Below, piece after piece: positions 1 to 12,560 of a DNA stretch of 64,000 nucleotides. Location: sequence record OQ921332.1. One strand, 5' to 3'. Source of the stretch: Escherichia phage vB_EcoP_PAS59. The notes below the pieces were generated by a model. It was not told where the DNA came from and made no database searches. It worked only from the letters and a program-made list of their open reading frames with translations. Positions within the stretch are counted from its first letter, which is position 1; each line of letters opens with the position of its first letter. The position numbers and the translations under genes are program-made.

Positions 1-120
1 ATGTATATCTAACCAGTGAATACATACCCGTATTTCTCTTACTCATGTTGAGAAGGGATGAAAGGCTAGACTCTGATGTACTGTACAGGCATACTGATAG
101 TGACTATAATAACTGACATA

Positions 121-205
121 ATAACCTATGATAACTAATGATAACCTATGTAAACTATATCAATCCTCACACTACCCCAAGTTTAATAGTGATAACCTAT
201 GTTAA
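121..205. repeat. direct repeats of ATAACCTATG (about 121-130, 141-150, 192-201; related copy 437-446)
   Basis: read from sequence; non-coding left end. Confidence 0.5.
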
Positions 206-393
206 TGTTTCATGAGTGGATTATTGATGTATGTATCATTAGACTGGTATTAGTTTCTTTTATCATTCTTTTAGGTCTGTTTCTTTTTCAGCGTGTCTTT
301 ATTCTTTTTCTTTTAGTTGTTTGAGTAAATTATTTGACTGGTAATTTACTACCGCATGGTCTGACCTGTTACCTGTAACTAACTTACATTATA

Positions 394-492
394 CCCTACC
401 CGTTTCCCCTTCCCCGTTAGGCTTCTTACCCATTGGCTAACCTATGCGGCACGTCTTACCCATCTATCTATCCCGTTGGTCTGCTACCCGTT
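394..492. repeat. iterated short motifs CCCGTT (x4) and TCTTACCCAT (x2)
   Basis: read from sequence; no ORF of 60 aa or more in bp 1-700. Confidence 0.4.
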
Positions 493-608
493 CTGTAAGT
501 GTTATAAAATTGTAAGCTGTATCTCTGAACAAGAAAGTTTAGTAAATTAAATTCTCTTTATATTCAGTGAGTTAGGATTATAAATCTAGATAGTTTGAAA
601 ATAAGTGG

Positions 609-636
609 TTGACATGTTTTTCCTTTAATGTATAGT
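609..636 (+). promoter_or_regulatory. sigma70-type promoter TTGACA-N16-TATAGT, overlapping a TAATGTATAG motif (626-635)
   Basis: consensus -35 at 609-614, -10 at 631-636. Confidence 0.45.
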
Positions 637-770
637 TGCAATCGTAGTTTGAATTATCGTTAATGAAGCAGTGATGTAAAGTAGTTAGCGGTGATAGTGA
701 GCAGTGAAGGTTGATCAGCCTAAGTAACTACACACGACAAACAATCTTTCATTTATCAGGAGTAGTAATA

Positions 771-1271
771 ATGGCTATCAAAGCAATGCAGGCTATCAAT
801 CTAGCGTCCTATGCACTGGTTGCAGCTATCGGTGTTAGTGCTATCGCTACCAATGTTCAGGCTAAAGATGATAAAGTGTTATCCGCTCCTACAGGTCTGC
901 AATCCTTTGTTAGCACGTTTAAGAATGCTCCTGATATGACTTGTCGTGACGTTGGTAGTGATGGTAATGATGCCTTCTGGCGTGTACACTTCAATGAAGT
1001 CACTACCGCTAATGTGCGTGTCACTCTTACCCCATTGGGCGAGAAATCTGGCACTCAGTCAGTCATTAAATTGAAACGTGCTGATAGTGATCATGACATG
1101 GTTACTTATTCTCTATATCAGAAGGTTGAGAAAGAAAAATTACAGTTTGTAACTAATCTCGTTAGTTATGGTGATGTGAGTGAAACCGTACTCGCTACTA
1201 CTGCATATCATGACGGTGTAGCAGTTTATACAACCTTTATTAACTTTGCTAATTGTGATATTGTTCAATGA
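771..1271 (+). CDS. secreted protein of unknown function
   Basis: ORF track 711..1271, start moved to ATG 771 behind AGGAG; N-terminal signal peptide MAIKAMQAINLASYALVAAIGVSAIATNVQA. Confidence 0.55.
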   Translation: MAIKAMQAINLASYALVAAIGVSAIATNVQAKDDKVLSAPTGLQSFVSTFKNAPDMTCRDVGSDGNDAFWRVHFNEVTTANVRVTLTPLGEKSGTQSVIKLKRADSDHDMVTYSLYQKVEKEKLQFVTNLVSYGDVSETVLATTAYHDGVAVYTTFINFANCDIVQ

Positions 1272-1364
1272 ATATGGTTTACCCTTTCTTGTTCTTTCTT
1301 GCAATCTTATTGTATGTTCGTAGTTGTATAGCCCTTGTTTCTCAAGCTATTAAGGATTAAACTA

Positions 1365-1613
1365 ATGAATGAGTCATACGCAACCGTAATAAATGCCTAT
1401 ATGTGCATTCAGCATGGTGATTTGGTTATCAGTGGTAAATATGGCCTTGTACTGATTCCTATCCGTGCTTTGGCTTCCTTGTCTTCAGCACATGCACGCA
1501 TGACTATTGCCCGATTGTCCGGCCTTGATCCGATGACCGCTAGCGAGTATCGCGATTTGCTGGTTAAGTCTGGTTTATCGCTGGAAGAACTGTTAACCGT
1601 CGAGGATAATTAA
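1365..1613 (+). CDS. hypothetical protein
   Basis: ORF track 1335..1613; internal ATG 1365 behind AAGGA. Confidence 0.45.
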   Translation: MNESYATVINAYMCIQHGDLVISGKYGLVLIPIRALASLSSAHARMTIARLSGLDPMTASEYRDLLVKSGLSLEELLTVEDN

Positions 1614-1615
1614 CG

Positions 1616-1888
1616 ATGGAAACTATTGCCATTATTGAAACACATAATTACGGCGTAGGCATTACACTGAATTATGACGCTATGGCTGACGTTGGTAATT
1701 TGTTATTGATCACCCCTAGCGATATGAAAATTATTGCCTTCACTGGTATTATGCTTATTGGTGCGGATTATCTTGAGCTGGCCCAATTCTTTGCCCGTAA
1801 TGGCCTACTATTGGACGTTGACGAGGTGCAAGCCATTTGTGAAACCTTTGATGACTATCTAGATAAGGTTGTAAGTGGTGATTCATAA
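1616..1888 (+). CDS. hypothetical protein
   Basis: ORF track; tightly packed after previous gene. Confidence 0.45.
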   Translation: METIAIIETHNYGVGITLNYDAMADVGNLLLITPSDMKIIAFTGIMLIGADYLELAQFFARNGLLLDVDEVQAICETFDDYLDKVVSGDS

Positions 1889-1980
1889 ATACTTCTTGCA
1901 TTGCCTGTTAGTAATTAGTATCATGTTATTTATCTATGACGTGATTTCTTATGTTGTTCGTTCCTTCTAAGGCTTGAATT

Positions 1981-2307
1981 ATGAAAATTAAATTAGCTGT
2001 ATGTGCTGCCTTGTTCGCTGTTTCTTCCGTGTCACATGCTGCCGTATTCAACGAGGCCAGTTTAGATGGTCTGCAATGCACCTATCTAATGGAAAACTAC
2101 GACACTGGCAAGAAGTCCAGCAAGGCAATATTGATTGACCTGAACGACTACGACAGCAAGATAGTTGATAGTAAGTCTGCAATGCTGGTCAATCAGACAA
2201 CAGGCAAGCAAATCACCATTGATCACATGATGCGATCTAGCATGACGTTGTTCGATGAGTCGATGAATGAAATAGCATCAGGTAACGGCACTTGCACCAA
2301 TCCGTAA
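1981..2307 (+). CDS. secreted protein of unknown function
   Basis: ORF track; signal peptide MKIKLAVCAALFAVSSVSHA. Confidence 0.55.
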   Translation: MKIKLAVCAALFAVSSVSHAAVFNEASLDGLQCTYLMENYDTGKKSSKAILIDLNDYDSKIVDSKSAMLVNQTTGKQITIDHMMRSSMTLFDESMNEIASGNGTCTNP

Positions 2308-2327
2308 CTAATCCGTAAGACTCTCTA

Positions 2328-2352
2328 AGCGCCCTTTTGAGGCGCTTTTTTC
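2328..2352 (+). terminator. rho-independent terminator
   Basis: AGCGCC-loop-GGCGCT stem followed by T-run. Confidence 0.6.
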
Positions 2353-2666
2353 ATTTCTAAGGTGATTGCACATCTTGCCCCTGTTTAGCTCGTTAGGATG
2401 CTTCCTATGTGCCTAGATTTCGATTATAGGGCTTGTTTTCTTCCTCCCTTGATGTTATTCGTGTGTGCGTTCCTTTATGCCTAAAAGAAAGTGAAATTAT
2501 TTTAGAAAAAGACTTGCAACGGTTTTAGGATAGTGTATATTGAATCTTGTCAGGACGTGATGCAGTAAGTTACCTCCTGATAGGCTAGATTCTTAGCCTT
2601 GCTCTTTAATAATTCGATTAGTGTATCTTGATAAACTCCCAACCATGCCATAATGAGGATTTATCA

Positions 2667-2867
2667 ATGAACGTGTATACCTTCTCAAGCAAAGACACGC
2701 AAATCACTTGCACTAGCATTAACGTTACTAACATGATTATGAGAATAGTCGGTAGTACATTACAGCAGGCAAAAGAGATGGTAGCCGATGCCGATAAAGG
2801 CAAAGCTATTGCGGTGTTATCGCTGGTAAGTACGGATAAAGATTTAACCTTTAAACGTATGAACTAA
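2667..2867 (+). CDS. hypothetical small protein
   Basis: ORF track 2628..2867; internal ATG 2667. Confidence 0.35.
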   Translation: MNVYTFSSKDTQITCTSINVTNMIMRIVGSTLQQAKEMVADADKGKAIAVLSLVSTDKDLTFKRMN

Positions 2868-2929
2868 GGTAAGGTTAGCGGCCTTAACGGTCGCTAGTTT
2901 ATCAAGATGCATTAATCGAAAAATAGTTG

Positions 2930-2957
2930 TTGACACATCGAATCATTATGATAAGAT
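2930..2957 (+). promoter_or_regulatory. sigma70-type early promoter (TTGACA ... TAAGAT)
   Basis: perfect -35 at 2930-2935; -10-like 2952-2957; GTTCAC follows as in the next promoter. Confidence 0.45.
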
Positions 2958-3003
2958 GTTCACACGGTCAGCGATGACATAAAACATCCGGCACTTAGTG
3001 CCC

Positions 3004-3023
3004 CGCTCTTTAACAATTTATCG
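3004..3023 (+). promoter_or_regulatory. boxA-like antitermination element CGCTCTTTAACAATTTATCG
   Basis: 18 of 20 nt identical to E. coli rrn boxA TGCTCTTTAACAATTTATCA as I recall it. Confidence 0.55.
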
Positions 3024-3089
3024 TCTTGCCCTTTCGCAAAGATTCACGCGAGATAAGGGAAGAGAATAAAAAGAAGACGATAAAAAGAG

Positions 3090-3117
3090 TTGACAAGGTG
3101 AAACGTTCTGATAGAAT
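3090..3117 (+). promoter_or_regulatory. sigma70-type early promoter TTGACA-N16-TAGAAT
   Basis: -35 at 3090-3095, -10 at 3112-3117. Confidence 0.55.
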
Positions 3118-3140
3118 GTTCACTAAGCAGTAAGAAACAC

Positions 3141-3156
3141 CGCTCTTTAAAAATAT
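3141..3156 (+). promoter_or_regulatory. degenerate boxA-like element CGCTCTTTAAAAATAT
   Basis: shares the GCTCTTTAA core with the 3004 and 3367 copies. Confidence 0.35.
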
Positions 3157-3256
3157 GAATCAGAAAGTTAAGCGCAACCGCTTACAATCTTGTTAATCCA
3201 ATGCGTGATTAACTGGTCATTCGAAAGAATAGACGAGAAAAAGATTAAAAAAGTGG

Positions 3257-3285
3257 TTGACACGCTAAACAGGATGATTCATAAT
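3257..3285 (+). promoter_or_regulatory. sigma70-type early promoter TTGACA-N17-CATAAT
   Basis: -35 at 3257-3262, -10 at 3280-3285. Confidence 0.55.
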
Positions 3286-3366
3286 GAGCACTCACTAGAC
3301 AACTAGTGAAACGCGAAACCACGGCGAACGGTGGCGGGAGGTGAGAAAGCACCTCGATAGATTTAC

Positions 3367-3386
3367 CGCTCTTTAACAATTTAAAC
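3367..3386 (+). promoter_or_regulatory. boxA-like antitermination element CGCTCTTTAACAATTTAAAC
   Basis: 17 of 20 nt identical to rrn boxA as recalled. Confidence 0.5.
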
Positions 3387-4198
3387 TTCTTCCTATATCG
3401 GTTGAACATGGCGAGCAATAATAACCATTGCAAGCTATGCCAGATAAAACGATGTAAGGCGCTCTAAAATATCAGAGGAAACCGCTTTATAATCCCTTAC
3501 TGGAAACGACACCACTGATAAATGAAGTTATTGAGTACATGCAAGGCTTAAGCTAATCGCCTACGGTTAAAGGGTAGCGGCGGCGGTGCTAGTAAAGTGC
3601 TACAATAATAGACGTTTATCGGGGTAGTCAAGTCCGACGAATTAACGCTCAATAGCGAGCGGCGGGAGGGGGTTAAAGAGTAGCAAATTGCTATTTAACA
3701 ATAAGGTTTAAGCGTGAGTATTTACTAAGTGAGTGTTTTGATACACATCAATAGCGATGTGAGTACATAAACATGTAGTGTAGTAAATCGTGAGAGAGAT
3801 AATCAAACGCCAAAGTATCAGGCGGTCAATGACTCTTTACCATATGCTTTCCCTTAGTAGGCGATAAGCAGGTTTAGAGAGTTGATATAAAAGGGTATCA
3901 CGAAGCGAAAGCAAAGTAGATAGTAATGCCATCGGCTAGAAATTTAGCTAATTAGAGATGGACGCGCTTGCCTTATTGTGATGATTGATCATCGCTGGCA
4001 AATCGGCTTTGTTTATAGCGATTAGTTGAATCCACCAGATGAAACATCACGGCAAGTTAGGCGGCAAGGTTAACTCCTGATAAGACCGCCTGATTTACCA
4101 CTGGTTACTAATGGTTAGTGATTAGTGTTAAGTCATAGTGACTTGAATAGCCCATAGAGGGCGGCGCATAGTGCGTTTATAATTGAAAGGTGAATATC

Positions 4199-5101
4199 AT
4201 GGCTAAAGTTTTTAATCTGGTTAACGAATCCGGCTTTAATGCACTGGCAAACAACATTCGTAGCAATAACGCGGCGATCAAACAAGATGTTTCTAACTTC
4301 CTGTTAGGGCATTTGCAGCACTTCCGCACCAACGGTAAGAAACTGGATGTATTGCAGGCGGCGGTTGATTTCTTGTTAACTGAACGTTATCGTGACTTAG
4401 ATGTGATTGCGGTTGCCATCTCTTTCTTAACTCCTATCAAATATAACACTGACGGGGCGAACGGTAAGAAGAAATGGATTAATCTGGAAGGTGAAGCGAA
4501 AGCTAAAGAAGATGCTAAACCGGAACAGGTTAAATCTAAAATGGAACAAAACCGCGCCCGCTGGTCGAATTCCTTTGAACGCTTTGCTAAAGGTGAAGAC
4601 GTGCAGGTTGATAACCCAGCATTCTACAAAGGTTGCAATGACAACGTTCCGGTAGCAAACCAGATCAACCAGAAGGTTAACGAAAACTTTAATCAGGATA
4701 TTTATGCACTGGTTGACCGTCTGGCTGCAATCCGTATTGAAGCGGCATTACTAGCAGATGAACGCAATGGCGCATCTTCTGATAACACTATCGCATTGAG
4801 TGAAGAAGTCGGCAAAGTTAAGAAAACTTTCGATTCACTCCTTAAGAAAGTGACCGCATCAACTGTATCTATCAGCGATGACTACCTGATTAATGCCTCG
4901 ACTAAAGAGCTTGAATCTCTGGACTCATACGCTGATGAAATGGAAAAAGCGATCAACGAAATGACTGAAAAATTGTCTAACCTTCGTGGTCGCATCTCAA
5001 ATGCTTCAACTATCAAAGCGAACGAGAAAGCTGCGCAGGAAGAAGAAGAAGTGTTGCGCAAAGCTGCCGAAATCATGGCAGCACGCCAACAAGCTGCATA
5101 A
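4199..5101 (+). CDS. early protein of unknown function (300 aa, acidic coiled-coil C-terminus)
   Basis: ORF track 4190..5101; ATG 4199; first long gene after the promoter and leader region. Confidence 0.6.
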   Translation: MAKVFNLVNESGFNALANNIRSNNAAIKQDVSNFLLGHLQHFRTNGKKLDVLQAAVDFLLTERYRDLDVIAVAISFLTPIKYNTDGANGKKKWINLEGEAKAKEDAKPEQVKSKMEQNRARWSNSFERFAKGEDVQVDNPAFYKGCNDNVPVANQINQKVNENFNQDIYALVDRLAAIRIEAALLADERNGASSDNTIALSEEVGKVKKTFDSLLKKVTASTVSISDDYLINASTKELESLDSYADEMEKAINEMTEKLSNLRGRISNASTIKANEKAAQEEEEVLRKAAEIMAARQQAA

Positions 5102-5120
5102 CCTATAATAAAACACATGA

Positions 5121-5154
5121 GGCGCTATTCGAAAGGGTAGCGCCTTTTTCTTTT
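5121..5154 (+). terminator. rho-independent terminator
   Basis: GGCGCTA-loop-TAGCGCC followed by TTTTTCTTTT. Confidence 0.6.
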
Positions 5155-5208
5155 ACTAGTGCATTGATTCAGTGTGCTAATCAAAGAAACTAAAAAGAGA
5201 TAAACACC

Positions 5209-5433
5209 ATGCCAAAACTGAAAACAGAAGTTAAGATGTATCGTAACATTCTCAACAACATGACCTATCGTAAAACCGATAAATACGGAATCGAATGCAA
5301 ATGCATTCTTACTGGCAAGTGGTATCCGTCGCCGATTCAAGAACAAGCATTGATTGAAAACTCTGTTACTTACACTATCACGCAGGAAACTAAGCTAGGC
5401 CGATTCCTTCGTAAGCTGGGGTTACGCAAATGA
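5209..5433 (+). CDS. hypothetical small protein
   Basis: ORF track. Confidence 0.45.
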   Translation: MPKLKTEVKMYRNILNNMTYRKTDKYGIECKCILTGKWYPSPIQEQALIENSVTYTITQETKLGRFLRKLGLRK

Positions 5434-5651
5434 TCTTAACTCAATCCCATTTGTGCCCTATCTGTAAGAAAGCACGTGCTAACAATAACCATCGCAAGTG
5501 TAGTAGAATCTTACAGCGTCGTCGTAATGATGCCGAGATGGATAAGATTCGAAAGAATCAGTATGAGCACGAAAGAAAACAAGCGGCGATTAGTGCATCT
5601 TCTGTAATGTATCGTCGTGTAAGAGCACTCCAATATAAAGAGGTTGTTTAA
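5430..5651 (+). CDS. small basic zinc-ribbon-like protein
   Basis: ORF track; CPICKK...HRKC; ATGA overlap with upstream gene. Confidence 0.45.
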   Translation: MILTQSHLCPICKKARANNNHRKCSRILQRRRNDAEMDKIRKNQYEHERKQAAISASSVMYRRVRALQYKEVV

Positions 5652-5861
5652 ATGACTAGTTTAAGCACGTTAGAGAAGAAAGCGACTCGACTGCTAGGAC
5701 GTCGTGTCCGCTACCACTACCTGAATAAAGGTAAGGCATTAACTGGACGTATTACCACGGTATCAAGTCGCTGCGGTAAACTAATCTCCGTAAGTGTTCT
5801 CTTTGATGGCGAACGTGTAGCAATTACACGTAGTTGGAAATCGTTTAGTTTAATTGATTAA
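5652..5861 (+). CDS. hypothetical small protein
   Basis: ORF track; abuts upstream stop. Confidence 0.45.
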   Translation: MTSLSTLEKKATRLLGRRVRYHYLNKGKALTGRITTVSSRCGKLISVSVLFDGERVAITRSWKSFSLID

Positions 5862-5931
5862 GTTATTTGGTTAAGCCTTGCTATGTGGTAAGGCTTGCAC
5901 GATATAATTTATCAGCGAAAGGAATAAAGCA

Positions 5932-6375
5932 ATGGCTAAATCTAAAATCAGCATGAAAGGCGGACGAGTGTTCTCTATGAGTGAGCTGGAAAAAGAAAAG
6001 CCAGCCGCTGTTAGTCATATTAGCAAACGTAGCCTTAAACGAAGAGCTATGAAACAGGCCGCTCAAGCACATAAAGAATCACCTGTACCAAAGGTGCTAG
6101 GTCGTCGTGTTCATCGTGCTGATGCGCTTCTTCTTGCTGATCACAAGCGTTCCTTGTTAACCAACGGGGCAGCAAAAACAGAACAAGAAAAACGTTTAGA
6201 AATCTTTTGTAATGGTCGCACTAAAGGTAAGCAGAAGAATAAAGGTAGCACTAAGCCACCGAAAGCATTTCCTACTACTAGTCAATGTGCACCGGATGTT
6301 TTCTACGCTGACAGTAAACACAAGTGGGGAGTTGAAAAATATATTGACCCAATCAAAACAGCAAGAGTTAAGTAA
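5932..6375 (+). CDS. highly basic (Lys/Arg-rich) protein, possibly nucleic-acid binding
   Basis: ORF track; composition only. Confidence 0.45.
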   Translation: MAKSKISMKGGRVFSMSELEKEKPAAVSHISKRSLKRRAMKQAAQAHKESPVPKVLGRRVHRADALLLADHKRSLLTNGAAKTEQEKRLEIFCNGRTKGKQKNKGSTKPPKAFPTTSQCAPDVFYADSKHKWGVEKYIDPIKTARVK

Positions 6376-6405
6376 GCCCCTTCTGTACCAGTGGTCAACT
6401 ACTAT

Positions 6406-6454
6406 GACGCTCTTCTTGAGCGTCTTTTGTCTGCCGCCTCTGTGCGGCTTTTTG
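6406..6454 (+). terminator. two tandem rho-independent terminators
   Basis: GACGCTC/GAGCGTC stem + T-run, then GCCGC/GCGGC stem + T-run. Confidence 0.55.
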
Positions 6455-6612
6455 CGTAGCTAGTGATGCCTAAAGGGAACTCCCTTTGTGAATCATTGGC
6501 ATGGTTCAATCCCTATTGGATGGTCATTTGACCGGGCCTTTAACGAGGCCGCTTTTTTAAGAGTCTTTGCGAGGATTTTTAAATGAGTGAGGTCATGTTC
6601 ACTTTTCAGGTC

Positions 6613-6639
6613 GCCCCGTCTTCGGATGGGGCTTTTTTA
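6613..6639 (+). terminator. rho-independent terminator
   Basis: GCCCCGTC-ttcg-GATGGGGC followed by TTTTTT. Confidence 0.55.
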
Positions 6640-6690
6640 TGCCCGTAAAACAGGGGGTAGTAAGTTCTGATAACGACAGCACAGCTACTT

Positions 6691-7077
6691 TTGACATTGA
6701 CTATTTATTATGAGGCAGGGAATCAGCCAACCGCTTGCAAAGCATTAGTAGCGGATACCGTAATAAACAGAATGTCACAACGAAAACTGACTGCCGAGCA
6801 GGTTATAAATCAACGAAACCAGTTCGAGTGGATACCCGTCCTATTAAAGAAGGAGAAACCTTTTAAGCGTTATGTAAAGCTGATTCGTGATGATAATCCT
6901 CTGACGAAGAAGTCAATCAGAGAGAGCGAGTGGCTTGCAAGGCGTGCACTGAAGAAAGGTTATGTGCCTTTGTACAGCGGTACATACTTTCAGAGTAAGA
7001 GCGAAGGGGTGCCAAAGTGGTATACCAATCCAATGTATTGTGGTGATTTAGTGTTCAATAATAGTGCCCGTGATTGA
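6691..7077 (+). CDS. possible SleB-like cell-wall hydrolase domain protein
   Basis: ORF track (TTG start, no clear RBS); EAGNQ...VADTVINR resembles the cell-wall hydrolase motif. Confidence 0.3.
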   Translation: MTLTIYYEAGNQPTACKALVADTVINRMSQRKLTAEQVINQRNQFEWIPVLLKKEKPFKRYVKLIRDDNPLTKKSIRESEWLARRALKKGYVPLYSGTYFQSKSEGVPKWYTNPMYCGDLVFNNSARD

Positions 7078-7278
7078 TTCATAGGTGCCAAGATTGACAA
7101 ACTAAATTTCCTTATAAATCACACACTTATGATTTTCTCTGCAAAAAGTGGAAGTGATTTGGGACCAGAGGTAATGACTGTATATAGACCTCTGAAAATT
7201 ATTGATAGAAATTAAGTTTAGAAATAATAAATTCTAAATAACATTTCTTATAATATCTTACTTTAAGAGGATAAAGAT

Positions 7279-7584
7279 ATGACTTTAGAGGTTTATAGAT
7301 TCCTTCTCGTACTCACCGTAACGATTTCTGTTCTAGGATTTATTGCGTTAAGTAATAAGTCAGCAAGCTGGAAGCGTCGTTATGAGTTCCTTCTTAAGCA
7401 AGAGGAAGTCTTTAATGCTGATGTTCGTTCCAAACTGCTCAAGATGCAGGAGCAAATTGAAGCACGTAATGATCGTTTGGCTTCTTTGGGTTGGGAGATT
7501 AAACGTATTCAAGATCTCAACAAGCAACTCGCTGAAGAAATTAAACGCCAGAATGAGGAAACAGAGGATGCGCTCAAAGGTTAA
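7279..7584 (+). CDS. membrane-anchored coiled-coil protein
   Basis: ORF track; N-terminal TM helix then charged helical region. Confidence 0.5.
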   Translation: MTLEVYRFLLVLTVTISVLGFIALSNKSASWKRRYEFLLKQEEVFNADVRSKLLKMQEQIEARNDRLASLGWEIKRIQDLNKQLAEEIKRQNEETEDALKG

Positions 7585-7744
7585 GTTTACCACTGGTAAC
7601 ACTGTTCGCCTTGTTGGCGGTACTCAAACAGGTGTTATTCGTCGGAGAACAACGATTGATGGTGTTCTCTGTTATCTTGTTCAGTGGAATGGTGAGTCTT
7701 CTCCTTCCTTCGAACGTCGTACTGATTTGGTGCTAGTCAAATGA
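7553..7744 (+). CDS. hypothetical small protein
   Basis: C-terminal part of ORF track 7382..7744; internal ATG 7553. Confidence 0.3.
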   Translation: MRKQRMRSKVKFTTGNTVRLVGGTQTGVIRRRTTIDGVLCYLVQWNGESSPSFERRTDLVLVK

Positions 7745-7974
7745 AGATAAACTTCGAAATCATCCCAAAGGTTAAAGAAAAGCAGCTAATCTTCAGTGAT
7801 CTCTCTAACGGGGATATTTTTAAATTTAAGAATGTTGATGCTGATACTTATCTTTGGATGAAAATTGACAAACGGTCTGCCATGAAGTTAAGTGACACTT
7901 CTGACATCACTGATGTATTTATCCATTCTGAAGTCTCTAAGTACAAATACAAAATTATCATTGAGGGTAAGTGA
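7741..7974 (+). CDS. small protein, GDxF paralog family
   Basis: ORF track; SNGDIFKF motif shared with 7974, 8735, 11249, 12306, 13948. Confidence 0.5.
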   Translation: MKINFEIIPKVKEKQLIFSDLSNGDIFKFKNVDADTYLWMKIDKRSAMKLSDTSDITDVFIHSEVSKYKYKIIIEGK

Positions 7975-8204
7975 TGAAAATTAATCTCTTCTCTGTAGTT
8001 GTTACTAAAAAGCTCAGTGAGTTACGTCCGGGCGATGTATTCCGTTTACCGACTAACTCTGAAAATGTCTACCTAAAGACAGACACTAGACTTAACGATA
8101 TGCATCGTGTGGTTGGTCTTAGTCAGGGGACACTGTTCCAATTACAGGAAGACCATGAAGTTATCCCTGTACCTGATGTTCAAGTAACTCATATCAATGG
8201 TTAA
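7974..8204 (+). CDS. small protein, GDxF paralog family
   Basis: ORF track 7971..8204; PGDVFR ... IPVP shared with 13948..14199. Confidence 0.5.
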   Translation: MKINLFSVVVTKKLSELRPGDVFRLPTNSENVYLKTDTRLNDMHRVVGLSQGTLFQLQEDHEVIPVPDVQVTHING

Positions 8205-10109: not shown

Positions 10110-10185
10110 GCACCCTTAGCTCAATGGACAGAGCAGCGACCTTCTAAGTCGTTGGTTACAGGTTCGAATCCTGTAGGGTGCACCA
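10110..10185 (+). tRNA. tRNA-Arg (anticodon TCT)
   Basis: hand-folded cloverleaf: acceptor GCACCCT/AGGGTGC, D-arm GCTC..GAGC, anticodon loop CTTCTAA, T-arm ACAGG-TTCGAATC-CTGT, encoded CCA. Confidence 0.85.
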
Positions 10186-12010: not shown

Positions 12011-12305
12011 TATCGTGAAGGACTCTTACGAGAGTCCTTTGAGATAGGACTTCAGATCTTCTATCAAACTAACTTTCACGTAACTAGCCCATAAGGGCGT
12101 TACCCTTCAATAACCCAGCCCACTAAGGGGGCGGGAGTTTAGTGCTGGAAAAGCATAACGCTTATCCTACAAAGGCAACCGATTGTTAGATCTTACATGC
12201 AATATTAATTAATAGGATATGGGAGGATTCGTCCCCTCCCCCTATTTATGAAAGCATTCTCCCGAGAGTTCTCTCATAAATTGGTCCATAACTAAAGGTG
12301 GTAAA

Positions 12306-12560
12306 ATGAAAGTTAACAAACCAGCCAGTAAGAACGCAATACCACTCAGCGCTCTGCGTCTTGGGGATTGCTTCATGTACCCTAACAGTGAAGATGGTGA
12401 TTTGTATATCTTACTGTCTACAGAGTTCTCCACTCGTTTGTGCATTAAGGGTGCGGACGAGCACAGACTTGTAGCCTGTCTTAACACAGGCCGAGCGACA
12501 GCTCCTCGTAAAGATGTTGCTGTTATTCCTATTAAAGCTGAAGCAACTATTAAGGAGTAA
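12306..12560 (+). CDS. small protein, GDxF paralog family
   Basis: ORF track; LRLGDCFMYP. Confidence 0.45.
   Translation: MKVNKPASKNAIPLSALRLGDCFMYPNSEDGDLYILLSTEFSTRLCIKGADEHRLVACLNTGRATAPRKDVAVIPIKAEATIKE

What the first reader, a model, noticed from the sequence alone, without database searches (positions are those of the whole stretch)
3290..4198. About 900 bp of non-coding early leader with repeated GGCGGGAGG-type motifs; possible structured RNA
Between the promoter array and the first long gene (ATG 4199) there is no credible ORF. The region contains repeated G-rich motifs (GGTGGCGGGAGG ~3333, GCGGCGGCGG ~3588, GCGGCGGGAGGGGG ~3661), with a further copy GGGGGCGGGAG at ~12129. A leader this long is unusual in a compact phage genome and could encode small RNAs or regulatory structures.
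Basis: seen in the sequence. Interest (0 to 1): 0.4.

Follow-up and report, generated by a model that had tools for sequence, protein, structure and literature searches.

The report
Large structured phage RNA behind rRNA-style promoters
The 900-base "empty" stretch in this phiEco32-like coliphage encodes no protein: it is a large, intricately folded RNA, conserved in every relative examined, transcribed from tandem strong promoters that each carry the boxA signal E. coli uses for its ribosomal RNA operons, and it matches no described RNA family.

Summary
The window is the early end of a phiEco32-like podophage (Gordonclarkvirinae; closest is phage NC-B).

**What holds up.** Positions 3290-4198 are non-coding. 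The neighbouring gene shows strong codon periodicity (p=1e-62) and the leader shows none (p=0.18).

**What does not.** One 9-mer occurs twice, the motifs are not conserved in relatives, and they are helix strands.

**What is there.**
1. Four sigma-70 promoters (2514, 2930, 3090, 3257) are each followed, on the transcribed strand, by a perfect match to the gammaproteobacterial boxA consensus GYTCTTTAANA. These are the only 4 hits in 64 kb (0.58 expected). Three have a hairpin just upstream, as in rrn leaders. All 16 relatives examined carry 4-6 such boxAs, all in the same orientation.
2. The ~890 nt from about 3292 to 4180 fold into 38 helices, tested on 24 distinct sequences. 98.5% of cells are paired (35-47% in slid controls). 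85 pairs show compensatory change (8-12 in controls). G-U cells outnumber A-C cells 570 to 25, so the fold belongs to the + strand RNA. There is no Rfam match.

**Best reading.** This is an rrn-mimicking, Nus/boxA-protected transcription unit that makes a large structured RNA, which is also the 5' part of the early mRNA. What the RNA does is unknown.

The parts
2514..2541 (+). Weaker sigma-70-like promoter (TTGCAA-16-TATATT), first of the boxA-bearing modules
   Evidence: 9 of 12 positions match. Function is inferred only from the hairpin and boxA that follow it.
2582..2612 (+). Hairpin AGGCTAGATTCTTAGCCT followed directly by boxA1 (GCTCTTTAATAA, 2601-2612)
   Evidence: The same module is present in SU7, UKE3, NC-B, MLP3 and Bas88.
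2667..2867 (+). Small ORF (66 aa, GAGG 7 nt before the ATG) between boxA1 and the next promoter
   Evidence: Annotated as SU7_114. No Pfam or PHROG family.
2930..2957 (+). Sigma-70 promoter TTGACA-16-TAAGAT with a TG extension
2990..3016 (+). Hairpin GGCACTTAGTGCC followed by boxA2 (GCTCTTTAACAA, 3005-3016). The 18 nt GCTCTTTAACAATTTATC are identical to the E. coli rrnB leader.
3090..3117 (+). Sigma-70 promoter TTGACA-16-TAGAAT with a TG extension
3142..3153 (+). boxA3 (GCTCTTTAAAAA), about 18 nt after the inferred start site; no obvious hairpin upstream
3257..3285 (+). Sigma-70 promoter TTGACA-17-CATAAT. Both hexamers are almost invariant in relatives (one has CATAAC). Inferred start site ~3292.
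3293..3334 (+). Two 5'-proximal hairpins: CACUAG/CUAGUG (3293-3309) and H2 (3319-3322/3331-3334)
   Evidence: H2 shows C-G to A-U compensation. The first hairpin is longer in most relatives but keeps its complementarity.
3337..3356 (+). boxB-like hairpin H3 with loop AGAAAG (22 of 24 sequences). UGAGAAAGC resembles the rrnB boxB sequence CUGAGAAAAAGC.
   Evidence: 3 pairs with both-sided change, up to 4 pair types at one position.
3368..3379 (+). boxA4 (GCTCTTTAACAA), inside a ~29-nt stretch (3357-3385) that is unpaired in the consensus fold and almost invariant
3386..3671 (+). RNA domain I, helices H4-H18.
3681..3701 (+). Invariant linker hairpin UAGCAAAUUGCUA overlapping a near-boxA (GCUAUUUAACAA, C4 replaced by A). 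Its 3' part enters helix H19.
   Evidence: It does not match GYTCTTTAANA.
3700..3977 (+). RNA domain II, helices H19-H30. It includes H24 (3788-3793/3898-3903) with 6 of 6 pairs compensated, and H22 with three different hairpin alleles.
3556..3564 (+). 5' strand of a 9-bp all-Watson-Crick long-range helix with 3857-3865. It links a loop of domain I to a loop of domain II, as a pseudoknot or kissing interaction, and may be within one molecule or between two.
   Evidence: 24 of 24 sequences paired, with two independent double compensations.
3857..3865 (+). 3' strand of the 9-bp long-range helix with 3556-3564
3978..4050 (+). RNA domain III, helices H31-H32 (18 + 7 pairs)
4058..4177 (+). Array of 3' hairpins H33-H38. 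H33 has 5 compensated pairs and H35 has 5. H36-H38 are three consecutive short hairpins with AUAG-type loops.
4188..4201 (+). Shine-Dalgarno sequence (AGGUGA) and ATG (4199) of the first long early gene (300 aa, PHROG 13018, function unknown). UUACC at 4095-4099 could pair with GGUGA.
   Evidence: The anti-SD pairing has no compensatory support and is inference only.

Best explanation
Positions ~2514-4198 form an rRNA-operon-like transcription unit of a lytic phage.

**Proposed mechanism**
1. Host sigma-70 RNA polymerase starts at three to four tandem strong promoters.
2. Within 18-76 nt of each inferred start site the transcript carries an rrn-type boxA, usually preceded by a small hairpin.
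3. By analogy with rrn leaders and boxA-equipped CRISPR arrays, NusB-NusE(S10) bind boxA. Together with NusA, NusG and SuhB they convert the polymerase into a Rho-resistant, fast complex that also chaperones RNA folding.
4. This lets the polymerase transcribe ~890 nt of untranslated RNA and continue into the early genes.
5. That RNA (about 3292-4180) folds into a conserved architecture: 5' hairpins, single-stranded boxA, three multi-helix domains, a loop-loop tertiary helix and a 3' hairpin array ending at the ribosome-binding site of the first long early gene.
6. The fold itself is the selected product. It acts as an RNA early in infection, either in cis on the early mRNA or in trans after processing.

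**Shown here**
- The region is non-coding.
- The boxA motifs are present, oriented and conserved.
- The secondary structure is supported by covariation and is strand-specific.

**Inferred**
- Nus factor binding and Rho resistance.
- The transcription start sites.
- What the RNA does.
For: **Non-coding**
- Codon periodicity is present in gene 4199-5101 (p=1e-62) and absent in the leader (p=0.18).
- The small ORFs are either broken in some phages or change only non-synonymously and lack a Shine-Dalgarno sequence.

**Under selection**
- 45% of leader columns vary, against 80% of third codon positions next door.
- All 97 related phage records keep the region at full length.

**boxA**
- The 4 perfect matches to the published consensus GYTCTTTAANA (PMC5725501) are the only ones in 64 kb on either strand. 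Expected 0.58; 0 of 100 shuffles reach 4.
- All are on the + strand and downstream of promoters.
- The 16 relatives carry 4-6 each, all on the + strand, although the upstream promoter modules differ.
- boxA2 plus its flank is identical to the E. coli rrnB leader over 18 nt, and the H3 loop resembles rrnB boxB.
- boxA4 lies in an unpaired, almost invariant stretch.

**Structure** (24 distinct sequences, 245 pairs in 38 helices)
- 98.5% of cells are paired, against 35-47% when partners are slid.
- 85 pairs change on both sides, against 8-12 slid and 41.8 in shuffles (0 of 500 reach 85).
- The covariation score is 0.253, against ~0.05 slid.
- A scan that uses no energy model finds the same helices.

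**Strand**
- 570 G-U cells against 25 A-C cells; 98.5% paired on the + strand and 89.2% if read on the - strand.
- Minimum free energy is -286 kcal/mol (z=-6.9) on + and -232 (z=-4.6) on -.

**Logic of boxA ahead of long untranslated RNA**
- Stringer et al. on CRISPR arrays (PMC7665894).
- The rrn complex resists Rho and aids rRNA folding (abstract of PMC6614801).
Against: - There are no expression, end-mapping or Nus/Rho data for this phage. Transcription start sites are inferred from consensus hexamers.
- No boxC-like element (TGTGTGGG, up to 1 mismatch) follows any boxA, and boxA3 has no obvious hairpin upstream.
- The leader is G-rich and C-poor after ~3500 and heavily paired. It may be a poor Rho substrate even without boxA.
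- The consensus structure was derived with RNAalifold from the same alignment on which it was scored, which inflates the pairing percentage. The slid and shuffle controls argue this is not the main effect.
- The 24 sequences come from one phage subfamily, so the number of independent substitution events is smaller than the cell counts suggest.
- Some local helices of the model (H17, H28) compete with the better-supported long-range helix 3556-3564/3857-3865.
- The function of the RNA is not established by anything here.
Confidence: 0.72

Rival explanations
1. The structured RNA works only in cis, as a giant 5' UTR of the early operon. It would protect the mRNA 5' end, provide processing sites (for example RNase III in the long H12-H13 or H31 helices), and gate translation of the first long gene through the 3' hairpin array and a possible anti-SD pairing. 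This differs from the best explanation only in what the fold is for.
For: - No terminator separates the fold from the gene. The last hairpin (H38) ends about 11 nt before the Shine-Dalgarno sequence.
- UUACC (4095-4099) can pair with the SD GGUGA in all sequences.
- There is a 5'-terminal hairpin at the inferred start site.
Against: - About 890 nt, 38 helices and a loop-loop tertiary contact are far more than known stabilising or SD-masking leaders need.
- The anti-SD pairing has no compensatory support.
- The leader and the gene recombine independently. SU7's gene is 97% identical to the window's and its leader only 76%.
Confidence: 0.35
2. The RNA is a trans-acting non-coding RNA released from the early transcript. 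It would serve as a scaffold or decoy for a host or phage factor, possibly an anti-defence or host-takeover function, and might multimerise as GOLLD and ROOL RNAs do.
For: - Its size, multi-domain fold, conserved loops and a 9-bp loop-loop helix that could be intermolecular.
- The recurring AUAG-type loops in H36-H38, with related AAUAGC loops in H18 and H22 of the window, look like repeated binding sites.
- It would be made very early from several strong promoters.
- Gordonclarkvirinae are reported as highly resistant to the tested defence systems (PMC11990801). This is circumstantial only.
- Large ornate RNAs occur in phages (PMC12286853).
Against: - There is no evidence of processing or of a 3' end before the gene.
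- No partner has been identified.
- No complementarity or similarity to E. coli sequences was detected.
- There is no Rfam relationship to GOLLD, ROOL or OLE.
Confidence: 0.3
3. The transcript is a replication primer or R-loop former of the ColE1 RNA II or T7/T4 origin type. Strong promoters would make a G-rich structured RNA whose fold controls hybrid formation with the template and starts phage DNA replication.
For: - The RNA is G-rich and the template C-rich (GC skew +0.18 to +0.27 over 3450-4200; G 24.4%, C 17.6%).
- There are strong promoters immediately upstream.
- A conserved fold matters for RNA II function (established knowledge, not tested here).
Against: - No origin features were identified: no AT-rich unwinding element, iterons or DnaA boxes were looked for or seen.
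- boxA-modified, fast-moving polymerase and a downstream translated gene fit an mRNA or ncRNA better.
- The element sits at the extreme early end of a linear genome.
Confidence: 0.07
4. The region encodes one or more small proteins or peptides that annotation missed, and the apparent structure is incidental.
For: - A 19-codon ORF (3409-3468) is open with an ATG in 23 of 24 sequences.
- One record (UKE3) annotates several 30-49-aa ORFs here.
Against: - No codon periodicity appears anywhere in the leader.
- The 19-codon ORF has no Shine-Dalgarno sequence, and essentially all its differences between alleles change the amino acid while preserving helices H6/H7.
- The other ORFs are interrupted in the window or in relatives.
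- The UKE3 ORFs lie mostly on the opposite strand and are not annotated in the other annotated records fetched.
Confidence: 0.04
5. The conserved complementarity acts at the DNA level, as a cruciform or single-stranded DNA structure for packaging, replication or recombination, or the GCTCTTTAA motifs are protein-binding DNA sites rather than RNA boxA.
For: - The region lies near a genome end.
- The motif is repeated in tandem modules.
Against: - 570 G-U against 25 A-C cells, and 22 pairs that are G-U in most sequences, show the pairing is specific to the + strand.
- The motifs are strictly on one strand, downstream of promoters, and match the RNA boxA consensus.
- A + strand single-stranded DNA fold is not formally excluded, because G-T pairs are tolerated in DNA.
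Confidence: 0.03

Closest known systems
E. coli rrn operon leader (tandem P1/P2 promoters, boxB-boxA-boxC, rrnTAC with NusA/B/E/G, SuhB and S4) followed by a large structured RNA
   Same: - Tandem strong sigma-70 promoters with A-rich upstream regions.
- A hairpin followed by boxA on the transcript.
- The boxA sequence equals the rrn consensus, and boxA2 plus its flank is identical to rrnB over 18 nt.
- A long untranslated, G-rich, highly structured RNA with long-range helices lies downstream.

   Different: - There is no boxC.
- The RNA has no similarity to rRNA or to any E. coli sequence.
- There are four boxA modules in series.
- The RNA runs directly into protein-coding early genes.
- Nus factor involvement has not been tested.
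[quoted passage not shown] 2020, PMC7665894; Baniulyte et al. 2017, PMC5725501)
   Same: A consensus boxA is placed shortly after the promoter of a long untranslated transcript, which is the situation where Rho would otherwise terminate.
   Different: - The element is in a lytic phage.
- The downstream RNA is a single large fold, not a repeat array.
- There are several boxA copies.
Lambda-type nut sites (boxA + boxB + N protein)
   Same: A phage uses boxA and a small hairpin with a purine-rich loop on early transcripts. There are many terminator-like hairpins downstream that early transcription has to pass.
   Different: - The order is hairpin then boxA, as in rrn, not boxA then boxB.
- The boxA has the rrn consensus rather than lambda's CGCUCUUA (the lambda sequence is from my own knowledge).
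- No N-like protein was found among the 10 early proteins scanned.
Large 'ornate' phage-associated RNAs (GOLLD, ROOL) and OLE
   Same: - Size class of ~600-900 nt.
- A multi-domain fold with pseudoknot or kissing interactions.
- Phage-encoded, with function unknown (PMC12286853).
   Different: - There is no covariance-model match to any Rfam family, even at E<=10.
- It is not next to a tRNA island; the single tRNA-Arg gene is 6 kb away.
- It is found in enterobacterial lytic podophages.
- It sits as the 5' part of the early operon, behind boxA modules.
Tandem early promoters and leader of T7-like phages (A1/A2/A3 followed by the RNase III site R0.3)
   Same: Several strong host-polymerase promoters lie in tandem at the genome end that enters first, followed by an untranslated leader (my own knowledge of T7; for this phage).
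   Different: The T7 leader is short and has a single processing hairpin. Here there are ~890 nt with 38 covarying helices and rrn-type boxA elements.

Membership tests
rrn-type boxA / Nus-factor antitermination site | RNA sequence matching the gammaproteobacterial boxA consensus GYTCTTTAANA | tested here: met
   4 perfect matches (2601, 3005, 3142, 3368), the only ones in 64 kb; 0.58 expected. The consensus is from PMC5725501.
rrn-type boxA / Nus-factor antitermination site | On the transcribed strand, shortly downstream of a promoter, ahead of untranslated RNA | tested here: met
   All are on the + strand, 18-76 nt after the inferred start sites of the promoters at 2514, 2930, 3090 and 3257. 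The orientation is kept in all 16 relatives. The start sites themselves are inferred.
rrn-type boxA / Nus-factor antitermination site | boxB-like hairpin upstream of boxA | tested here: met
   Hairpins at 2582-2599, 2990-3002 and 3337-3356; the last has 3 compensated pairs and a loop that is AGAAAG in 22 of 24 sequences. None is obvious before boxA3.
rrn-type boxA / Nus-factor antitermination site | boxC (GU-rich, TGTGTGGG in rrnB) downstream of boxA | tested here: not met
   No match with up to 1 mismatch between 2601 and 4200 (rrnB reference).
rrn-type boxA / Nus-factor antitermination site | boxA accessible (single-stranded) in the transcript | tested here: met
   3357-3385 is unpaired in the consensus structure and almost invariant. 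The upstream boxAs were not modelled.
rrn-type boxA / Nus-factor antitermination site | Binds NusB-NusE, recruits SuhB/NusA/NusG, and confers Rho resistance | not testable with these tools
   Needs ChIP, in vitro binding, nus mutants and bicyclomycin.
Lambda-type N-dependent nut site | boxA upstream of boxB, plus a phage N-like arginine-rich antiterminator | tested here: not met
   The order is hairpin then boxA. No antiterminator family was found among the 10 early proteins scanned. Most early proteins are of unknown function, so an N analogue is not excluded.
Any described RNA family (Rfam 15, including GOLLD, ROOL, OLE, HEARO, group I/II introns, RNase P, 6S, tmRNA, r-protein leaders) | Covariance-model match at or near the family's gathering score | tested here: not met
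   Only the tRNA at 10110 passes the gathering score. For 2400-4300 at E<=10 the best hit is 17 bits against a 75-bit threshold.
Conserved structured RNA (generic) | Base pairs maintained by compensatory substitutions well above controls, and specific to one strand | tested here: met
   85 of 245 pairs change on both sides, against 8-12 in slid controls. 98.5% of cells are paired. 0 of 500 shuffles reach the observed values. G-U 570 against A-C 25.
Protein-coding gene | Three-base periodicity of substitutions and a conserved ORF with a start codon and ribosome-binding site | tested here: not met
   Leader phases 128/148/129 (p=0.18), against 79/54/242 in the adjacent gene. The small ORFs are broken or change non-synonymously and have no SD.
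ColE1 RNA II-like primer / R-loop origin | The transcript forms a persistent hybrid at an origin and is processed to prime DNA synthesis | not testable with these tools
   Only the G-richness of the RNA and the upstream promoters are compatible with it.

The most novel reading that the evidence does not exclude
Gordonclarkvirinae coliphages encode a previously unrecognised class of large (~0.9 kb) ornate RNA. They produce it by copying the host's rRNA-operon control logic: tandem strong promoters, boxB/boxA, and a Nus-factor antitermination and chaperone complex. In this reading the RNA is a functional molecule in its own right early in infection. It could be a decoy or scaffold for a host factor or defence system, or a self-assembling particle like GOLLD and ROOL, and not merely an mRNA leader.
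Probability: 0.3. Interest if true: 0.9.

Novelty: new variant of a known kind. Interest (0 to 1): 0.8.

Why it matters
**A tractable new RNA.** Large structured RNAs with dozens of covarying helices are rare. Each new class (OLE, GOLLD, ROOL, raiA) has opened a line of work. This one sits in a common group of E. coli phages that includes BASEL-collection isolates growing on O-antigen-restored K-12 derivatives, so it is directly testable. About 890 nt and ~85 compensated pairs give a ready secondary-structure model.

**A candidate for an open question about these phages.** The paper on the distant relative 7-11 states that an antitermination strategy 'remains to be defined' for that phage. The early region here contains an excess of terminator-like hairpins. 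For the phiEco32 group, the boxA modules are a concrete candidate for how early transcription is made processive, although 7-11 itself has no boxA.

**A wider use of the Nus/boxA system.** So far the system is tied to rRNA, lambdoid nut sites, suhB and CRISPR arrays. A virulent phage using it to make a non-ribosomal structured RNA would extend that list.

**Practical point.** In most of the records inspected this region is either left blank or carries doubtful small ORFs.

Tried and rejected
1. **G-rich motifs as a repeat family.** Rejected: not enriched, not conserved, and explained as helix strands.
2. **Rfam.** Nothing at gathering thresholds for the whole window or at E<=10 for 2400-4300.
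3. **Similarity or antisense complementarity to E. coli.** Searching 2500-4198 against 5,426 genomes gave one 34-nt chance hit. The database size makes this test insensitive to short matches.
4. **Distant relatives through the downstream protein.** tblastn and IMG/VR found the 300-aa protein only in the same 97 phages and their metagenomic copies. It has no Pfam domain and falls in a PHROG of unknown function.
5. **Pattern scans for more diversity.** The 18-mer around boxA4 gave 8 usable new homologues. The other hits were mostly chance matches or copies of sequences already held. Four chance hits (L017, L025, L027, L030) entered alignment A1, which I discarded for that reason.
6. **Bacterial genomes and IMG/VR scan with a conserved domain motif.** It returned only chance hits or phages already known.
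7. **Phage 7-11.** It has its own ~1-kb unannotated leader but no boxA, and no blastn or nhmmer similarity. I did not build covariance models to push this further.
8. **Full-length RNAalifold in one piece.** The result was noisy, so I folded domain by domain after the covariation scan.
9. **Anti-SD pairing 4095-4099/4189-4193.** Compatible with all sequences but without compensatory support.
10. **The two primary phiEco32 papers.** Savalia 2008 and Pavlova 2012 are not held. I cannot exclude that they mention the spacer's boxA-like sequences. No paper in the searchable library links boxA or a structured RNA with these phages.
Full report
**Identity of the window.** The 2.8 kb around the finding match phiEco32-like podophages (Gordonclarkvirinae). 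Phage NC-B is 96-98% identical, the Suseptimavirus and Kuravirus genera 75-90%. The window starts near the genome end that carries the early genes, and these are read on the + strand. All 97 related phage records contain the 909-bp stretch at full length (at least 98% coverage, 73-98% identity). In 53 of the 60 records listed nothing is annotated under it or the record has no annotation. In phiEco32 itself about 1.9 kb between genes 125 and 124 carry no annotation. One auto-annotated record places tiny ORFs there, mostly on the opposite strand.

**Checking the observation.** The absence of a credible ORF is confirmed.
- The longest + strand ORF overlapping the leader is 38 aa (3190-3306), and none on either strand within 3306-4133 exceeds 34 aa.
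- In a 17-genome alignment, variable columns of the adjacent gene (4199-5101) fall 79/54/242 on the three codon positions (p=1e-62). In the leader they fall 128/148/129 (p=0.18). No 120-nt sub-window is significant.
- Three small ORFs recur at the same place in many relatives, but none looks coding. Two are interrupted in some phages. The third (19 codons, 3409-3468) lacks a Shine-Dalgarno sequence, has ATA in place of ATG in one phage, and differs between alleles almost only by amino-acid-changing substitutions that preserve RNA helices.

The region is nevertheless constrained. 45% of its columns vary, against 80% of third codon positions next door.

They are not a repeat family.
- Only GGCGGGAGG recurs, twice.
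- One-mismatch matches are not enriched: 6 against 3.7 expected.
- The strings are not conserved as motifs in relatives.
- The copy near 12129 is the loop of an unrelated hairpin in another intergenic region.

**The promoter array carries rrn-type boxA elements.** The promoter-like sites at 2514, 2930, 3090 and 3257 are each followed on the + strand by GCTCTTTAA[C/T/A]AA. The SU10 genome paper notes three sigma-70 promoters in this spacer, as in phiEco32.
- The functional consensus derived for gammaproteobacteria is GYTCTTTAANA (PMC5725501). It has exactly four matches in the 64-kb window on both strands, all here. Expected 0.58; no shuffle of 100 reaches four.
- In three modules a small hairpin lies upstream of boxA, directly abutting it in two. 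This is the rrn order.
- boxA2 with its 3' flank is identical to the E. coli rrnB leader over 18 nt (GCTCTTTAACAATTTATC). The hairpin before boxA4 has a loop, UGAGAAAGC, that resembles the rrnB boxB sequence CUGAGAAAAAGC.
- Each of the 16 relatives examined has 4-6 such elements, all on the + strand. The promoter modules in front of them are often unrelated in sequence. Selection therefore acts on the boxA itself.
- A fifth look-alike at 3690 (GCTATTTAACAA) misses the consensus at a critical position and is part of the RNA fold.
- No boxC-like sequence is present.

**The leader is a large structured RNA.** I collected 24 distinct homologous leaders from phage records, IMG/VR and metagenomes. 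Chance hits were discarded after they showed up in a first alignment.

A scan for stacked column pairs that stay complementary, using no energy model, returned many helices rich in compensatory changes. Several are long-range: 3788-3793/3898-3903 with 6 of 6 pairs compensated, 3386-3390/3667-3671, 3712-3716/3963-3967 and 3698-3707/3970-3979.

Domain-wise RNAalifold gave a consistent nested model of 245 pairs in 38 helices. Scored on alignment A2, the results are:

| Measure | Model | Partners slid 1-3 columns | Shuffles |
|---|---|---|---|
| Cells forming a standard pair | 98.5% | 35-47% | 92.3% |
| Pairs with change on both sides | 85 | 8-12 | 41.8 (0 of 500 reach 85) |
| Covariation score | 0.253 | ~0.05 | 0.128 |

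Sixteen helices have three or more compensated pairs. Some positions show four different pair types. Helix H22 exists as three unrelated hairpin alleles.

The structure was derived from the same alignment on which it was scored, which favours it. The gap to the controls and the independent scan make overfitting an unlikely explanation.

The fold belongs to the + strand.
- 570 cells are G-U and only 25 are A-C.
- 22 pairs are G-U in most sequences.
- Pairing would fall from 98.5% to 89.2% on the opposite strand.
- The single-sequence minimum free energy is -286 kcal/mol (z=-6.9) on + and -232 kcal/mol (z=-4.6) on -.

**Anatomy** (window coordinates):
- Two 5' hairpins (3293-3334).
- The boxB-like hairpin H3 (3337-3356).
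- An unpaired, almost invariant stretch holding boxA4 (3357-3385).
- Domain I (3386-3671).
- An invariant linker hairpin (3681-3694).
- Domain II (3700-3977).
- Domain III (3978-4050).
- Six 3' hairpins (4058-4177). The last three carry AUAG-type loops and end about 11 nt before the Shine-Dalgarno sequence of the first long gene.

Beyond the nested model, a 9-bp helix 3556-3564/3857-3865 is Watson-Crick in 24 of 24 sequences with two independent double compensations. It joins a loop of domain I to a loop of domain II. It competes with the weakly supported local helices H17 and H28.

In phage TH34, positions 3699, 3978 and 4050 changed together, so both 3699-3978 and 3978-4050 remain paired. 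This hints at alternative pairings at the domain II/III border.

About 55% of nucleotides are paired. Unpaired positions are as conserved as paired ones, 54% against 50% invariant, as expected if loops make tertiary or protein contacts.

**Comparison with known families.**
- No Rfam family matches, either at gathering thresholds or at E<=10.
- No similarity or complementarity to E. coli genomes was detected, although that search is insensitive to short matches.
- A conserved motif of the RNA occurs in bacterial genomes only as chance hits. In IMG/VR it occurs only in the same phage group plus one chance hit.
- The downstream 300-aa protein is confined to the same phages and has no known function.
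- The distantly related Salmonella phage 7-11 has its own unannotated ~1-kb stretch before its first early gene, but without boxA and without detectable similarity.
- In the searchable literature I found nothing that links boxA, Nus factors or a structured RNA with these phages. The two primary phiEco32 papers could not be read.

**How it most likely works.** The arrangement copies an rRNA operon: tandem strong promoters, a hairpin plus boxA on the nascent RNA, then a long, G-rich, untranslated, highly folded RNA.

In E. coli, boxA recruits NusB-NusE and, with NusA, NusG and SuhB, gives a complex that resists Rho and promotes rRNA folding (abstracts). The same device protects long untranslated CRISPR transcripts.

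I therefore infer that the phage boxAs make host polymerase Rho-resistant across the ~890-nt untranslated RNA. They may also help its long-range helices form. The modified polymerase would then carry on into the early genes, a region with an excess of terminator-like hairpins (14 against 5.6 expected).

The following steps are inference, not demonstration:
- Nus factor binding.
- Rho resistance.
- The transcription start sites.
- The role of the fold.

The leader's own composition may already make it a poor Rho substrate. G exceeds C almost everywhere after ~3500.

Whether the RNA acts in cis (stability, processing, translational gating of the first gene) or in trans (decoy or scaffold, perhaps multimeric) cannot be decided here. 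I give the two roughly equal weight. A primer or R-loop role is possible but less likely. Protein-coding and DNA-level explanations are disfavoured by the periodicity and G-U tests.

**Verdict.** The region is a new, well-supported, large structured RNA family restricted to Gordonclarkvirinae, embedded in an rrn-like boxA transcription unit. The transcription logic is a new variant of a known kind. The RNA itself has no known relative. Its function is the open question, and it is experimentally accessible in E. coli.

Noticed in passing
window 12012-12306: A second intergenic stretch of ~295 nt with several hairpins. A terminator-like hairpin lies at 12221-12240. There is no boxA and no sigma-70-like promoter.
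   Followed up: partly
window 1-8000, + strand (2327, 5119, 6406, 6433, 6535, 6613): Terminator-like hairpins are enriched in the early region: 14 found against 5.6 expected. Early transcription has to read through several of them, which fits a processive antitermination mechanism.
   Followed up: no
window 3290-5101 compared with L001 (SU7), L002 (UKE3), L006 (EK010), L008 (Bas88), L036, L065: The leader and the adjacent gene have discordant histories. The gene in SU7 and UKE3 is 97% identical to the window's, but their leader only 76%. Several phages share the window's allele only in the 3' part of the leader (all from ~4045, some from ~3985). This points to recombination inside the leader near domain borders.
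   Followed up: partly
window 3699, 3978, 4050 (phage TH34, L005): Three positions changed together in TH34, so both alternative pairs 3699-3978 and 3978-4050 stay Watson-Crick. This may indicate a conformational switch or base triple at the junction of domains II and III.
   Followed up: partly
L016 (phage LAMP), aligned to window ~3795-3850: LAMP replaces the H25 / 5' H26 part of domain II with a longer, unrelated insert. It behaves like a variable or expansion segment of the RNA.
   Followed up: no
L074 (Salmonella phage 7-11, NC_015938), reverse strand 1-1050 of the locus: The distant relative 7-11 also has ~1 kb of unannotated, G-rich sequence between its genome end and its first early gene, gp151. 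It has no boxA and no detectable similarity to this RNA, so it may be an independent structured leader.
   Followed up: partly
window 4129-4177, 3646-3661 and 3734-3773: Hairpin loops of the AUAG type recur: AUAGU, AUAGA and AUAGU in three consecutive 3' hairpins, and AAUAGC in H18 and H22 of the window. They may be repeated binding sites for an unknown protein.
   Followed up: no
window 1981-2307: A 108-aa early protein matches PHROG 13168, which is labelled 'terminase', and some records copy that label. For a small protein in the early region the label looks doubtful.
   Followed up: no
window 10110-10185: tRNA-Arg (anticodon UCU). It is the only Rfam or ARAGORN hit in the window.
   Followed up: no
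window 609-636 and 711-2307: The first early promoter (TTGACA-16-TATAGT at 609) is followed within ~75 nt by translated genes and has no boxA. boxA occurs only in the promoter modules that precede the long untranslated RNA.
   Followed up: partly
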